In this document: positions 3,001-18,000 of the stretch, in pieces
Position numbering within the stretch: position 1 is the stretch's first letter
How the letters are laid out: every line of letters begins with the position of its first letter
Position numbers: made by a program
Assembly (NCBI GenBank): GCA_965224715.1
Contig: OZ245054.1
Span: 774,933 to 838,932 of the forward strand
Direction: 5' to 3'
DNA length: 64,000 bases
Source: Spirochaetota bacterium
Lineage (GTDB): Bacteria; Spirochaetota; UBA12135; COTS27; CAXSBA01

Positions 3001-6000
3001 GAGGCAGGAGGCGGGCAATATCCAATTTTGATTGACACTAGCCCCTGTACTGCATTTATTAGAGACAATACTCTCCCGGATAACTGGGAAGTATTGGATC
3101 CTATTACTTTTATTAAAAAATATCTCTTAAAAGAACTCTTAATTCGGAAACTAAACAAGAAAGTAGCAATCCACACTACCTGTAGTGCTTCAAGGTTGGG
3201 TTTGGAAGAAGATTTATTGGATCTAGCCCAAACTTTGACTAAGGAAGTTGTGGTTCCCCAGGAGATAAAATGCTGTGGATTTGCTGGGGATAAGGGGTTT
3301 AAGTATCCCCAACTAAACGCCTCCGCTCTCACTACTTTGAAAGACCAGATCCAGGGATGTCAAGAAGGCTACTCCACTAGTATCACTTGTGAAATTGGTC
3401 TCAGTGAACATGGAAGAATTCCTTATGGGTCAATCTTCTATTTATTGGATGAAGCATCTCAAGTTAATCAATAACTATTAATAGAGTGAATCAGCTGTTA
3501 ATATAGAAAAGCTTAATTATTAGGCGATTTAATAGCTTCTAACACGTGAAATACCCCTCTCAAGTATTTTAGCTATATTCACTAGCGTATTGCCTTATAC
3601 TAATAAACACTTCTTAAACGTTTTTATTCTTTCTTGTAATGTCATTTGTTTATATTGCATTATATTTTTGTTTGACAAATTTGTCTGAAAAAGTTGTTTG
3701 AACTTAAGAGATAAATTTTCCCTTTTCATCTTTTTATTATATAATTTAATAAGTGCAATTTTTAGATTACAATTGTTTTTTAAAATTAAAATATTATTTT
3801 GTTCTTTTTGTGCTAATTGTGGGACTTCTGTATTCTCAAGAAATTGATAGTGGAGATCCTTTAATCCATACAAACATTACTCAAACCAATAGTTCAAGAA
3901 AAATTTTTTCTAATGCATCCCATCATTTATCCTTAGAAATTCTTATGATGACAGCAGTATCAGCTGATACTGTTTATTCTTATTTATATAAAACTCCCAT
4001 TCTAGGAGGGGTTTATTTAGCCTATGACTATCAAGCTGTTCCCATTCTTCATCATGTAAGTCTTAGCGGTGGGGCTGGTCGACTTTATTCACCCTACATC
4101 AGTGATCCAGATTATCCATCATTGGATGACTTGGTTTTTCAATTCTCGTTAAACTATTTTACTGCTTTCTCAATTTGGGGGTACGATAATCATAGGCTAT
4201 ATTTGGGATTTGGCACCCATTTCTACGGTAATGGATGGATACCCGATAGTGAAGAATGGGATATTCTCAGATATACATGGTTTTTACACTCTGGAGTCGG
4301 AATAGTCTTTAATTATCGATGGAGAATCAACCCAAAGCATAGTATTGAAGTCGATTTCTATACTCCAGTTCTAGGAGCAGGTTGGAGGGCACATTATTCT
4401 GGCTACACCTTAAAGGAAGAAGCCCTTTTAGAAACTGAGGGCACTCTTTCTGTTATTTTCTTGAATCCTTCTTTTCTATCATGGCATAACTTTTTCAGTT
4501 TTGATATTCGGTTTGCTTATCAATATTTTTTTAATGATGTAGTTGGCATAGAAATGGTCTATTTCGGCTTATTAGAATATACTAAAATCCCGCGTCGTCG
4601 CTTTGATTGGCAAAATAATATTAGTTTTGGAGTTGTTTTTAACTTATGAGACGTTTCCCTATAAGATATCATTTTAAATGGATGGCCTGGTGGTTAGGGA
4701 TCATTTGGTTCTTGAACTGTAGCTTTCCCTTTGAGGGGAATTTCGATAACACTCCTCAAGGTAACTATGATTTTTTCTTCTATGAATTAAAACAGAGTTA
4801 TGCTTATAAAGACTATACCTTTGATGGATATACTTTAGATCAAATCCAAGAGCTTGAAGGTAGAAATTTAAACGACTCTTGGGATTCTCTTCGTGATGCC
4901 TTAAATAGGGTTATCAATGTTCGACTACTTGATCCCCATGTTTATTCGGTTTATTCTCCTATACCTTCAGGGGATGTTGAATTTGATGAATATTACTTAA
5001 ATAAACGTGGAAAGAGCAACTTTGATATCGATGAACCCATTATCAGTGATAACAGAATAACTTGGATTAAAACCGATTCTAAATTCATCCGTTATGGGAT
5101 AATCTCCAATGTCATAGGGTACTTGTATGTGATAAGCCTTGTTGATAATCTTGGAGGGATTGATCGACTTACTTCAACGAGTGTATTCGGTGAACTTGTC
5201 GATGAAATGGTAGAGAAATTTTCCAGTCAAGGGGTCGAAAAGATTATTGTTGATATCAGGTCATCCGCGGGTGGGGCAGCCTATCGGGGCAAAGAAATCG
5301 CTGGGAGGTTTCTCAGTCAAGAAAAAACTTTCATGATTTCAGAAAACCTAACTTCTCCTACTACCTATGAAACTGTATATGAGAAAGTATCCCCTGTTGG
5401 GAAAGGAGCTTTACGTGGACTTCCTCTGGTGCTTTTGGTTAATACACGAACTTGTAGTGGTGGTGAAATGTTATCCTTAATGTTTCAACAAGCAGATGGC
5501 TATCGTCGTACAATCGGTACTTCAACCTATGGCTGTACTGGCACTATTATCGACAAGGAACTTATGAATGGATGGATAATACGGATTACTAGTAGCCGTA
5601 CTTTTACCCCAGACCATATAAGCTATTTTAAAATAGGTATTGTTCCGGATGAACTGGTTGTAACGGGAGATAGCGACGAGGTGCTTACCCGAGCAATTTC
5701 ATTCCTTAATAAATAAAAATCAAAGTTCAAAAAGAATAAAGCAGTAAAGCTACTTCTTATTGCGCCTCATAGGCTTCCATATTCAGTCGACTTACCCAGC
5801 CATATCTTCTCAGGCATCTTGGCGGCAAGTCCCTCCAAGAGATAATTTTATTTTAGATTGATAATTTATTGGATATAATTAAATTATATTCAATAAACAG
5901 ATTCTTTTTAAATTCAGAACTTATCAATTAATAAGGTTTTGTTATTTAGAATAAAATTTTCAAAACTATGAATGATTTGCTTTTTAAATTTATCAACACG

Positions 6001-15000: not shown

Positions 15001-18000
15001 GATTCATTTAGATGTTATGGATGGACATTTTGTTCCAAATATTACCTTTGGTGCTCCTATAGTAAAAGCGATTAGGTCATCTTCACAAAAAGTGTTTGAT
15101 TGTCATTTAATGATAGAAAATTGTGATGCCTATATTGGTGACTTTGCTAAGGCAGGTGCAGATATTATTACTGTCCATGTAGAGGCGACAAAACATCTAG
15201 ATCGTTCCTTGTCTTTAATTAAGGAGCATGGGAAAAAAGCGGGTGTCTCATTGAATCCCGCTACACCTCCTGATACGCTTACCTATGTTATGGATAAATT
15301 GGATTTGATTTTAGTCATGTCGGTTAATCCCGGTTTTGGAGGTCAGTCATTTATCCCCTCTTGTTTGGACAAGATACGAGAGCTACGTAATATGGTTGGC
15401 AATAGGGATATCTTTATAGAAATAGATGGTGGTGTTTCTTCTGCCACATGTGGTAAAATCGTGGAAGCGGGAGCAAATGTGTTAGTAGCAGGCTCTGCCA
15501 TTTTTAAAGGAGGTGGCAGAGAACAATATAGAAAGTCAATTCAAGAAATTAAAGATAATTGCTAAAATATGTAAAAAGGGATTAAAGTCCAAGATAAGGT
15601 TAATATAGGGATATTATTTTATAAGAACTTTTAGAACTCTTTGGCTTAGATAGCAAATCACCTGACCTAAAAAACAAAATAAAAATATGAAAGGTAATAT
15701 GATCGGAGTTTATCTCACTGGTCATGGAGGTTTGGATAAACTGGAATACCGTGAAGATATTCCAATACCTAAAATTGATTCTGATGAAGTATTGATTCAG
15801 GTTTTAGCTGCTAGTGTGAATAATACCGATATTAATACTCGAATAGGGTGGTATTCAAAATCTGTTACCCATAGCACTCAAGAGGCTCAGGAAGCTGTAG
15901 AAGTGGGGTTTAATCATTTCCAAGATGGGAGTTGGTCAGGAGGGGCGATTCATTTTCCCCGAATTCAGGGAGCCGATTGTGTTGGGATTATTCGAGAAGT
16001 TGGAAAAGATGTTTCTGTTAGAAAAGTCGGGGAGCAAGTAATGGTTCGCACCTTACTGCGTGGCTATTCCAACGACAATCTTATGGAATGTTGGACTCTA
16101 GGTTCAGAGTGCGATGGTGCCTTTGCACAGTTTACTAAAGTAAAAGCAGTAGATGCCTATAGAATAAATAGTGATTGGAGTTATGCAGAATTGGCTTCTA
16201 TTCCCTGTGCTTATTCTACAGCTGAAGGAATGCTTGCTCGTAGTCAGGTAAACGATAAGGATACGGTTTTTATTACTGGAGCCTCTGGAGGCGTGGGATC
16301 AGCGGCAGTACAATTAACCAAAGCTCGTGGTGCCAGGGTGATTGCTCTTGTGGGAACTGGAAAAGAATTGGCAGTCAAACAACTGGGTGCAGATGAAGTT
16401 GTCAGTCGAGATATGTTTGAGGGAAAACTAAAGGAGACAGTTGATGTGGTTATTGATTTGGTTGGGGGTGAGCAATGGCCACACTTGCTTGATCTGCTCA
16501 AGGCTGGAGGCCGCTATGCTACGGCTGGGGCGATTGCTGGCCCTATGGTTAATTTAGATTTACGCACACTGTATTTAAAAGATTTGACCCTTTATGGATG
16601 TACCTTTCAAACAGATGGAGTTTTTGAAAATGTCATCCATTGTGTTGAAAAAAATTTGATCAAACCGATTATTGCCAAAACTTATCCGTTGTCAGATATT
16701 GTCCAAGCACAACGAGATTTTCTTGCTAAAAAATTTACGGGGAAATTAGTGTTGATCCCTCCCCATTTTTCACAAAGATAAACAAAAAGTAAATATTTTT
16801 ATTGCGTTTTCTTTATATTTAATGGGCGAAGTTAAACATTTTTTATACTTCTTTTTTAATTTTTTCTATATCTTGTTAGTAAATGTTTTATCCAAATGTA
16901 AAAGTCATACCCAATACTGGATAGTCGTTTAGCGTGCGGTGGCAGCGAACTTTTTAACCTTGGCCAGATACGCTCATAATGTAATTCTAACTCCTTAACC
17001 TTGGCCAGATACGCATCATAATGGACAATATTTCTCATTGGGACCGACTGCTCAGCAAAATGTAATTCTAACTCCTTGGGTGCCAGTAAAACCATGTTTT
17101 GTTTATACCAGAAGAAAACATCAGGGTTATCCCAGAAAATTGGACGCAATATATCGTGAATCACGTAGTTGTGTTTCGCAAATTTTTCTTCCCAATAAGT
17201 CAACCATTGTTCATTAATATGATTTTGTCCTCCTTGATAGGGAATTGCAGCCGAGAAAACAATCATCTTTCCCGCGTTAACAAGAGACTTTACAAATAGA
17301 TTAGCTGATTTATAGCTTAAATGTTCTGCTACTTCTAAACTTAGCACTAAGTCATATTTTTTATTTAAGGTAATTTTGCTTTCTAGGTCATATTCTAAAA
17401 ATTCACCCGGGGTAATGTTTTCGTACAACAAATTTTTATTCACCCAAGCCCCATCGATGCCTAAGATATCTGTCACTCCTAAGCTTTTAAAAACATTTAA
17501 GAAAGTTCCTGTTCCACAACCAATATCTACCACACTTTTGGGGGATAACAGTCTCATTATTTCAGGTACAATGATGCGGGGCGATATTAGATTATGTGAT
17601 CTTTTTTTATGTTTATATTTCACTTGTATTTCCTAAATTAAAATAATATTTCTCAGTACCCGATTCATCTTTTTCTGTTATTGAAATAGCTAGAACGGTA
17701 TAAAGTCATTGGCAATTAGTTCGAACGAATTTATGGTCATTCTATTCTTCCGAAACATGAAAAACGGGTAGCCGAATTTTATAAAATATCGCTATGAACC
17801 TCAAAATGGCTACAAAAGCAATTCCCAATAAAGAAGCAGAAGTTTTATCAAGTCCTAATGCTTGTAATAACAAATACACTGAAACACCGCCTAATGCAGC
17901 AACAGAGTAAAGCGTTTCAATTGAGCGAAAAAGTAGCGGGATTTCACTGGTAAGAACATCTCTCATTACCCCTCCAGCCACTCCTGTGAGCACTCCCATG

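What a model noticed while it worked through the whole genome (the two positions that open the first line are those of the whole stretch)
5914..15565. Complete red-type Calvin cycle operon in a spirochaete
cbbR with cbbF-P-T-A-L-S-X-rpe (g00710-718) encodes a full Calvin cycle with form IC RuBisCO, taken from Rhizobiales-type alphaproteobacteria and now matching the host's codon bias. A second cluster (76421-82884) joins TauE, persulfide dioxygenase and sulfide:quinone reductase to phosphoglycolate phosphatase, CbbY-like and GlpX genes, pointing to sulfide-supported CO2 fixation in a mollusc-associated spirochaete.
Evidence so far: RbcL 90% and PRK 74% to Sinorhizobium, CbbX 69%. Form I RbcL in none of 300 other Spirochaetota searched (best 42%, call 33); RuBisCO_small in at least 2 of 2011. 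GC3 0.25-0.32 vs genome 0.32. The stretch with its spirochaete flanks is covered at 99% or more in 29 of 30 bins by a mollusc metagenome of another study (X4), rbcL contigs stand in two mollusc RNA runs, and a 95%-alike strain (X5) covers the flank but not the cbb genes. Its transketolase and aldolase are the only ones annotated in the genome.
(Added by a program. Inside this text positions count along the whole contig: contig position 774,933 is position 1 of the stretch shown here. "Call 12" and the like, gene names such as g00115 and contig names such as C1 are that model's own, and its searches are not shown. The text may have been shortened before it was handed on; [...] marks where a part breaks off. 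The agent that wrote the report below was given it as the finding of a first reader that could run no searches.)

Follow-up and report, generated by a model that had tools for sequence, protein, structure and literature searches.

The report
Borrowed Calvin cycle in marine spirochaete
A mollusc-associated spirochaete carries an intact CO2-fixing (Calvin cycle) operon of alphaproteobacterial type and lacks its relatives' own versions of four sugar-phosphate genes; it likely runs the cycle on electrons from organic food rather than as a true sulfide autotroph, and a second spirochaete lineage carries such an operon from a separate donor.

Summary
Observation confirmed. cbbR with cbbF-P-T-A-L-S-X-rpe is intact in a single-contig 2.11-Mb spirochaete genome. 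The gene order matches 51 of 80 loci with the closest RbcL; RbcL is red-type (89-91% to the best alphaproteobacterial hits), GC3 is host-like, and six concatenated genes group with Rhizobiales.

New here: relatives' native fbp, tkt, fba and rpe are missing from this genome, and the rpe slot between flaA and valS is empty, so the borrowed genes now do housekeeping.

The sulfide-autotrophy reading is weak. Complex I, NiFe hydrogenase, SoxY and molybdoenzymes were not found. SQR is type II with a CstB-like dioxygenase, the CbbY-like and GlpX genes look Bacteroidota-derived, and full heterotrophic machinery is present. Best reading: mixotrophy, with organics supplying NADH and sulfide at most supplying ATP.

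Two first-reader claims fail. Other Spirochaetota do carry form I RuBisCO: G597 and G615 have an independent betaproteobacterial-type cbbLSXYFP operon without SQR, G424 has a partial green-type RbcL, and a 2022 survey lists a Turneriellales MAG. The 'strain lacking cbb' holds 29% of the operon's words. No earlier scan note on a spirochaete Calvin cycle was found. Fixation is unmeasured.

The parts
5914..6840 (-). cbbR, LysR-type regulator, divergent from the operon (308 aa)
   Evidence: Best NCBIfam model NF045990 CbbR, E 3e-79, below cut-off; homologue in 70 of 80 related loci
6841..7105 (.). 265-bp divergent intergenic region, 12% GC; presumed CbbR control region (inferred from position only)
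   Evidence: recalled four-site CbbR pattern matched 2 times against shuffle mean 0.78, p 0.32, so not above chance
7106..8149 (+). cbbF, class 1 fructose-1,6-bisphosphatase (likely also SBPase); only class 1 copy in the genome
   Evidence: NF006780 over cut-off; single tblastn hit
8163..9038 (+). cbbP, phosphoribulokinase
   Evidence: NF011997 over cut-off; 126 of 128 near-invariant columns kept; 97% copy on a 32-kb Logan contig
9048..11024 (+). cbbT, transketolase; only copy in the genome
   Evidence: TIGR00232; native type present in relatives, absent here
11041..12090 (+). cbbA, class IIB fructose-bisphosphate aldolase; only class II copy found
   Evidence: TIGR01521; G001 has a class IIA enzyme instead
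12111..13571 (+). cbbL, red-type form IC RuBisCO large subunit (486 aa)
   Evidence: Best PDB hits 5NV3 (966 bits) and 1BXN (924) above all other entries; 323 of 328 near-invariant columns kept; active-site motifs present
13598..13984 (+). cbbS, RuBisCO small subunit (128 aa)
   Evidence: PF00101 E 5e-40; 44 of 44 near-invariant columns kept
13996..14910 (+). cbbX, red-type RuBisCO activase
   Evidence: TIGR02880 over cut-off; Walker A/B and pore-loop motifs present; most diverged gene, 15 of 152 near-invariant columns changed
14903..15565 (+). cbbE (rpe), ribulose-phosphate 3-epimerase; only copy in the genome
   Evidence: TIGR01163; native rpe slot between flaA and valS is filled in G001 and G002 and is a 109-bp gap here

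Best explanation
This is an intact Rhizobiales-type cbbR-FPTALSXE operon in a respiring spirochaete that lacks its relatives' native fbp, tkt, fba and rpe, and it likely works as a mixotrophic Calvin cycle that fixes or re-fixes CO2 with NADH from organic substrates, while sulfide would at most add ATP. Shown: operon anatomy, origin, single-copy status of F/T/A/E, the empty rpe slot, the rest of the cycle elsewhere in the genome (GAPDH, PGK, TPI, RpiB, transaldolase), a beta carbonic anhydrase, and a respiratory chain of Na+-NQR, menaquinone genes, alternative complex III, caa3 and cbb3 oxidases and NrfAH. Inferred steps: (1) one transfer of the whole block, long ago; (2) loss of the redundant native genes, which ties the operon to ordinary pentose and hexose phosphate metabolism, since no G6PD was found; (3) PRK, RuBisCO and CbbX are active; (4) in a low-oxygen, sulfidic niche, SQR electrons load the menaquinone pool and feed the oxidases, so NADH from lactate, propionate, sugars or polyamines is spared for, or spills into, the Calvin cycle; (5) phosphoglycolate may be salvaged through malate synthase. 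Net CO2 uptake would need substrates more reduced than biomass (propionate 4.7 and putrescine 5.5 electrons per carbon against about 4.2; standard arithmetic).
For: Order identical in 51 of 80 loci. Rhizobiales placement with support 1.0 and SH-aLRT 99. L, S and P, which have no housekeeping use, keep 98-100% of near-invariant columns, as well as or better than F/T/A/E. Native G001 fbp, fba, rpe and tkt hit only the cbb copies in six frames, apart from a weak tkt hit on the pyruvate dehydrogenase gene; rpe slot empty. Heterotrophic toolkit: PDH, ICD, 2-OGDH, SDH, MDH, ICL, malate synthase, PckA, pyruvate carboxylase, Pfk, PrpB, beta-glucosidase, pyruvate kinase, aconitase, SucC, Acs, MenB, MenD, sugar-binding proteins. 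Not found in G000: complex I, NiFe hydrogenase (26), SoxY (62), CoxL-type (63), molybdopterin oxidoreductases (69), G6PD (65); control genomes rang in each. cbb3, NrfAH, SQR, PDO, PntB and the YeeE/rhodanese pair have no G001 homologue; beta-CA absent from G001, G002, G004. RNA-run contigs cover nearly all of rbcL, 12204-13603, in X7 and PDO-SQR in X7 and X8. PMC5702731 (passages) calls the SQR-PDO system not energy-efficient and typical of heterotrophs.
Against: No fixation rate, protein or isotope data. RNA evidence is contigs only and may be DNA. The cycle costs 3 ATP per CO2, which a non-phototroph short of oxygen may not spare. cbbX and cbbF are more diverged than the other genes. The CbbR site pattern is not above chance. 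The sulfide step is not general: G597 and G615 carry a red-type operon with no match to this SQR. Only about 150 of some 1,665 called ORFs were scanned against family libraries, so an unusual NAD-reducing enzyme could be missed. The glycolate-oxidising step of salvage was not identified.
Confidence: 0.58

Rival explanations
1. Facultative sulfide chemolithoautotrophy: SQR reduces menaquinone, ACIII and the oxidases build the ion gradient, Na+-NQR runs backwards to make NADH, and the Calvin cycle gives net growth on CO2.
For: SQR keeps both catalytic cysteine motifs of the human type II enzyme. PDO, TauE, YeeE-type transporter, extra rhodanese, cbb3 oxidase and beta-CA are all gains relative to G001. 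Menaquinone genes are present, and with menaquinol the gap to NAD+ is 174-246 mV for an assumed 2 Na+ per 2 electrons, near a seawater sodium-motive force (potentials recalled). PDO-SQR lie in RNA contigs.
Against: No complex I, Sox or Mo-type sulfite oxidase found; only 2 electrons per sulfide would be conserved. I found no passage showing reverse Na+-NQR in a lithotroph. The two clusters lie about 700 kb apart and have different donors. G597 and G615 have cbb without SQR.
Confidence: 0.2
2. RuBisCO shunt for sugar breakdown: with no oxidative pentose phosphate pathway, PRK and RuBisCO turn pentose phosphates into 3-phosphoglycerate and recapture respired CO2, without a closed cycle or any link to sulfide.
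For: G6PD not found; sugar transporters, beta-glucosidase, Pfk and Pyk present; the second spirochaete lineage has sugar transport genes near its operon region and no SQR.
Against: G6PD is also missing in 8 of 9 genomes of the order, which lack RuBisCO. All regeneration enzymes are present, so nothing forces an open shunt.
Confidence: 0.12
3. Passenger genes: the block is kept because F, T, A and E became essential; P, L, S and X are little used and slowly decaying.
For: Native copies are lost; cbbX has 15 of 152 near-invariant columns changed and the branch is long.
Against: GC3 fell to host level while RbcL kept about 90% identity and L/S/P kept 98-100% of near-invariant columns; strains 5% diverged at DNA level appear to keep the operon, PRK 97%; rbcL is in RNA-run contigs.
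Confidence: 0.08
4. Assembly or binning chimera with an alphaproteobacterial contaminant.
For: No laid contig spans the whole 20-kb stretch, and none of the listed pieces joins a host gene to a cbb gene.
Against: Single contig, 0 contamination; AT-rich codons unlike any of 80 donors; X4, of another study, covers flank and operon at similar low depth and 99% identity; without the operon the genome would have no tkt, fba or rpe.
Confidence: 0.02

Closest known systems
cbbR-cbbFPTALSX-rpe operon of Rhizobiales/Rhodobacterales (Sinorhizobium, Hoeflea, Paracoccus); form IC RuBisCO as in PDB 5NV3
   Same: Gene set, order, divergent cbbR, 89-91% RbcL to the best hits, CbbX activase
   Different: Sits in a 36%-GC spirochaete at GC3 about 0.28; is the only source of tkt, class II fba, rpe and class 1 fbp; no hydrogenase, Mo-formate/CO dehydrogenase or Sox found to drive it
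'Ca. Thiobarba', Campylobacterota epibionts of mussels with a horizontally acquired Calvin cycle (PMC6908604, passages read)
   Same: Mollusc-associated member of a phylum not known for the cycle; cycle gained by transfer
   Different: Thiobarba has a patchwork of two clusters with CbbQ/O, a full Sox pathway, and proteomic and isotope support; here one intact red-type block, no SoxY, no functional data
Turneriellales MAG 3300000227_14 (Spirochaetota, Leptospirae) in the carbon-fixation survey PMC9802188 (passages and two supplement rows read)
   Same: Calvin-cycle genes, including PRK and RuBisCO hits, listed for a member of Spirochaetota
   Different: Groundwater MAG of another class, 86% complete, one table row with a short RuBisCO alignment and no analysis in the passages seen
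Heterotrophic SQR-PDO-rhodanese systems, incl. Staphylococcus CstB-type PDO (PMC5702731 passages; PDB 3TP9, 3R2U)
   Same: TauE, PDO-rhodanese fusion and type II SQR in one cluster
   Different: Followed here by two HAD phosphatases and GlpX, in a genome that also encodes RuBisCO
COTS27, starfish spirochaete symbiont (PMC7444263, passages)
   Same: Marine spirochaete with glycolysis, TCA cycle, cytochrome c oxidase, F-ATPase and Na+-NQR instead of complex I
   Different: No carbon fixation mentioned (0 hits for 'carbon fixation'); kinship to G000 was not tested by sequence here

Membership tests
Form IC (red-type) RuBisCO | Large subunit closest to bacterial red-type enzymes | tested here: met
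   5NV3 966 and 1BXN 924 bits rank first; no green-type plant or cyanobacterial entry passed 1e-200
Form IC (red-type) RuBisCO | Catalytic motifs intact (TKPK, KDDE, HR, loop-6 K, SGG, GGG; motifs recalled) | tested here: met
Form IC (red-type) RuBisCO | Adjacent small subunit and CbbX activase | tested here: met
Form IC (red-type) RuBisCO | Carboxylase activity | not testable with these tools
   Needs an enzyme assay
Complete Calvin-Benson-Bassham cycle | PRK and RuBisCO | tested here: met
Complete Calvin-Benson-Bassham cycle | PGK, GAPDH, TPI, FBA, FBPase, TKT, RPE, RPI | tested here: met
   PGK and TPI, GAPDH, RpiB, the rest in the operon
Complete Calvin-Benson-Bassham cycle | SBPase activity or transaldolase variant | tested here: inconclusive
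   CbbF and GlpX are candidates (bifunctionality recalled); transaldolase present but just under cut-off, 379 vs 396 bits
Sulfur-oxidising chemolithoautotroph | Energy-conserving sulfur oxidation beyond SQR (Sox or Mo sulfite oxidase) | tested here: not met
   SoxY and both Mo-enzyme families not found; DsrAB not searched by family, though no candidate appeared in the Fe-S motif scan
Sulfur-oxidising chemolithoautotroph | Known reverse-electron route to NAD(P)H (complex I or Rnf) | tested here: not met
   No complex I; the single NQR2/RnfD hit is NqrB; reverse Na+-NQR is not excluded on energetic grounds
Sulfur-oxidising chemolithoautotroph | Growth on CO2 as sole carbon source | not testable with these tools
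   Uncultured as far as seen
CbbY (xylulose-1,5-bisphosphate phosphatase) | Closest solved relatives are CbbY | tested here: met
   Only 4UAV, 4UAR and 4UAT pass 1e-12, at E 1e-20 to 1e-23
CbbY (xylulose-1,5-bisphosphate phosphatase) | Descent from or linkage to a cbb operon | tested here: not met
   Named neighbours among the best 120 are Bacteroidota and Chloroflexota; lies beside a Bacteroidota-like GlpX, 700 kb from cbb
Type II SQR | Closest to human SQOR with both active-site cysteines | tested here: met
   E 1e-97 to 6MP5 against 1e-16 or weaker for other SQR structures

The most novel reading that the evidence does not exclude
Spirochaetes have taken up the Calvin cycle at least twice as whole red-type operons, and this mollusc associate has locked it in by deleting its own sugar-phosphate genes and drives net CO2 fixation from sulfide through a reversed Na+-NQR on menaquinol: a chemosynthetic spirochaete symbiont with no complex I, Sox or hydrogenase.
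Probability: 0.2. Interest if true: 0.85.

Novelty: new variant of a known kind. Interest (0 to 1): 0.62.

Why it matters
Spirochaetes are treated as heterotrophs or acetogens, and rbcL reads from mollusc samples are usually assigned to Proteobacteria; this rbcL would be called Rhizobiales. The genome shows how a borrowed carbon-fixation operon can become permanent: the native genes it duplicates are lost. A Calvin cycle with no standard inorganic source of NADH, gained independently by two spirochaete lineages, makes a standing question testable: what RuBisCO does for heterotrophs. If reverse Na+-NQR drives it, that would be an unusual minimal design for sulfide autotrophy.

Tried and rejected
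1) Strain-level loss of cbb: X5 and X6 show no cover over the operon when laid, but the tool drops some records, and the index gives them 0.29 and 0.27 of the operon's words; the hole is not taken as absence. 2) pgp-cbbY-glpX has almost no cover in RNA contigs X7 and X8; uncovered parts are not evidence and were not used. 4) Promoter and terminator scan: 41 promoter-like sites against 42.2 expected, 10 terminator-like against 6.8 (sd 2.9); uninformative. CbbR pattern not above chance. 5) Sister copies in JGI metagenomes with CbbF: 6 loci, all 38-45% identity, none close. 6) Rhodopsin search rang in no genome and no control, so it is inconclusive. 7) Single-gene trees disagree on the sister group: cbbA with Rhodobacterales, cbbL unresolved; only the concatenated placement is used. 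The careful IQ-TREE search did not finish; the quick tree is cited. 8) PRK not found in G424 with this query, so that genome is not counted as having a cycle. 9) Recalled motif scans for beta-oxidation, fermentation, NDH-2, glycogen and antiporter genes found none; single regexes are weak and are not used as proof. 10) No cytochrome b of bc1; explained by alternative complex III. 11) No structure or complex prediction was run, as solved close homologues exist.
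Full report
Observation. The window holds cbbR on the minus strand (5914-6840) and eight tightly spaced plus-strand genes, cbbF, P, T, A, L, S, X and rpe (7106-15565), all open. The genome G000 is one contig of 2,112,975 bp, 36.3% GC, 89.84% complete, 0 contamination. It encodes FlaA sheath proteins, a family found in 0 of 14 control genomes and matching spirochaete flagellar structures. A 16S gene lies 7 kb downstream of the operon. The second cluster lies outside the window, about 700 kb away (L009:10422-16885).

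Origin. The scan for RbcL relatives stopped at 600 of about 1,900 stretches and kept the best 80; the top ones are Rhizobiales and Rhodobacterales at 89-91%. In 51 of these 80 loci the order is exactly cbbR(rev)-F-P-T-A-L-S-X-E. A concatenated tree of P, T, L, S, X and E over 46 rows places the spirochaete with the Rhizobiaceae/Hoeflea/Mesorhizobium/Devosia group (support 1.0) on a long branch of 0.405, outside every sampled genus. A mixture-model quick tree on five genes and 28 hand-picked loci of the 80 agrees (SH-aLRT 99) and flags the row as long and compositionally odd. The donor is thus an unsampled Rhizobiales lineage. GC3 is 0.24-0.32 against a donor rbcL median of 0.86; codon distance from the genome lies at the 63rd-94th percentile of similar-length genes. 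The transfer is therefore old, or passed through an AT-rich carrier.

Selection. Against 45-46 loci that hold all eight genes, near-invariant columns changed in the spirochaete number 5 of 328 (L), 0 of 44 (S), 2 of 128 (P), 15 of 152 (X), 9 of 206 (T), 6 of 164 (A), 2 of 67 (E) and 6 of 69 (F). The three core fixation genes are as well kept as the housekeeping ones. Active-site motifs, recalled from known RuBisCO, CbbX and PRK, are present. The best solved relatives are bacterial red-type enzymes.

Replacement of native genes. All 9 other genomes of the class have a transketolase hit, those of G001, G002 and G004 being about 700-aa native enzymes at 34-37% identity. G001 (AAI 46%, 956 reciprocal pairs) has its own class 1 FBPase, class IIA aldolase and Rpe. 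Searched in six frames, these four native proteins hit only the cbb copies in G000, plus a weak tkt hit on the pyruvate dehydrogenase gene. In G001 and G002 the order is flaA-flaA-rpe-valS; in G000 it is flaA-flaA-valS with a 109-bp gap. G6PD was not found in G000 or 7 of 8 other order members, so the non-oxidative route through CbbT and CbbE would be the only link between pentose and hexose phosphates. This is the strongest new result, and it also argues against a chimera.

Rest of the cycle and energy metabolism. GAPDH, PGK, TPI, RpiB and transaldolase are encoded elsewhere, as is a beta carbonic anhydrase missing from G001, G002 and G004. The respiratory chain has Na+-NQR, succinate dehydrogenase, menaquinone synthesis, alternative complex III, caa3 and cbb3 oxidases, NrfAH, an F-type ATPase and transhydrogenases. 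The c subunit lacks the recalled Na+-binding motif. Not found, with controls ringing: complex I (17), bc1 cytochrome b (18), NiFe hydrogenase (26), SoxY (62), CoxL-type (63) and molybdopterin oxidoreductases (69). Present: PDH, TCA enzymes, glyoxylate shunt, methylcitrate genes, Pfk, Pyk, Acs, a beta-glucosidase, sugar-binding proteins, an L-lactate-dehydrogenase-like enzyme and agmatinase. About 150 of 1,665 called ORFs were scanned against libraries; I picked them by motif and by eye.

Second cluster. SQR is type II, the dioxygenase is a PDO-rhodanese fusion, and this SQR has a full match in no other genome of the 10 in the class. PMC5702731 (passages) describes such systems as common in heterotrophs and not energy-efficient. 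The CbbY-like protein does resemble CbbY structures, but its named neighbours are Bacteroidota and Chloroflexota, as are those of GlpX, mostly Bacteroidota at 62-70%. Several hits of the two searches share contig lengths (5892, 16748, 13422, 76732 bp), which suggests a pair that travels together outside cbb operons (inference). A YeeE-type sulfur transporter and a rhodanese beside the oxidase genes are further gains. A sulfidic, low-oxygen niche is a fair inference; a direct tie between this cluster and the Calvin cycle is not shown.

Independent data. Thirteen listed runs of five studies hold part of the operon; ten of the listed holders are either labelled mollusc metagenome (nine) or organism B (one), and three are organism A, possibly the source. 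X4 covers 29 of 30 bins at 99% or more. X5 and X6 carry the second cluster on single contigs running into host genes at about 95%. They show a hole over cbb when laid, yet hold 0.29 and 0.27 of its words, and 96% identity predicts 0.28; a PRK 97% identical sits on a 32-kb Logan contig. I read the hole as dropped records. RNA-run contigs cover rbcL in X7 and PDO-SQR in X7 and X8. Contigs cannot show strand or level, and DNA may be present.

Distribution in the phylum. RbcS was found in 1 of 401 genomes, G000 itself, and form I RbcL in none of 60 relatives (best other 42%). Class-wise searches, which overlap these samples, found more: 1 of 190 (G424, green-type, cut at a contig end, among 35%-GC genes), 0 of 40 and 2 of 401 (G597 and G615). 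The last two are 2 of 4 genomes of one genus. They carry cbbL-S-X-Y-F-P, closest to Azohydromonas, Aquabacterium and two unclassified Proteobacteria MAGs among the named loci, and G597's copy lies near prfA and ftsY in a single-contig genome. A single origin with G000 is rejected (AU p 0.00013). They have no match to the SQR.

Literature. Ten searches listed no paper describing a Calvin cycle in a mollusc spirochaete; the library lacks most subscription journals. PMC9802188 names Leptospirae among CBB-positive groups (passage), and its supplement, cut when stored, lists one Turneriellales MAG. PMC7895386 has no 'Spirochaet' in text or in 8 held supplements. PMC10880623 has the phylum only as a figure abbreviation. 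PMC11231605 reports an oyster MAG of the COTS27 family and does not mention RuBisCO. PMC12168267 notes mixotrophy among RuBisCO carriers and does not mention spirochaetes. The malate-cycle salvage route is from the abstract of PMC7486775. bioRxiv supplements were closed, and newer genome surveys may list these genomes. The scan's own notes held no spirochaete Calvin-cycle finding.

Mechanism and verdict. The cycle needs NADH, and the only sources found are organic. I put 0.58 on mixotrophy in which organics give NADH and sulfide, when present, gives ATP; 0.20 on sulfide autotrophy through reverse Na+-NQR, which menaquinone makes borderline feasible; 0.12 on an open RuBisCO shunt; 0.08 on passenger genes; 0.02 on artefact. 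The operon is a standard member of a known family. What is new is the host, the loss of the native genes, the lack of a standard inorganic reductant and the repeated gain in spirochaetes. Interest 0.62.

Noticed in passing
L232:4974-10713 (G597) and L235:5053-11030 (G615): Independent red-type operon cbbL-S-X-Y-F-P of betaproteobacterial type, with no cbbR beside it, in 2 of 4 genomes of one spirochaete genus; no SQR match; electron donor unknown.
   Followed up: partly
L225:7470-8339 (G424): Green-type form I rbcL cut by a contig end, next to kdsC and an MBOAT gene at 35% GC; PRK not found with our query.
   Followed up: partly
window 22780-24310: 16S rRNA gene with no 23S gene in the window; tRNA-Ile and tRNA-Ala lie far away, so the rRNA genes are unlinked.
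   Followed up: no
window 661-3474: 937-aa FAD-linked oxidase fused to 4Fe-4S and CCG domains, 2.4 kb upstream of cbbR; a D-lactate or glycolate dehydrogenase candidate that could serve phosphoglycolate salvage.
   Followed up: partly
window 15687-16781: Zinc-type alcohol dehydrogenase/quinone reductase 121 bp after rpe on the same strand; not found in any of the 80 donor-type loci.
   Followed up: partly
L126:1118-3275 (contig 1840115-1842275): YeeE-type sulfur transporter and rhodanese protein close to the caa3/ACIII cluster, absent from G001.
   Followed up: partly
window 18528-22392: GH25 lysozyme-like gene and a 988-aa surface protein with Listeria-Bacteroides repeats.
   Followed up: no
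window 25910-28108 and 48981-50471: Catalase-peroxidase and a multicopper-oxidase-like protein.
   Followed up: no
L009:4000-10000: Members of a large repeated lipoprotein family directly upstream of tauE; strain contigs pile up to about 30 times single-copy depth with many joints.
   Followed up: no
G000 contig about 294000-327000: Run of genes without G001 homologues that look like a prophage by their N-termini (recognised from recall, not scanned).
   Followed up: no
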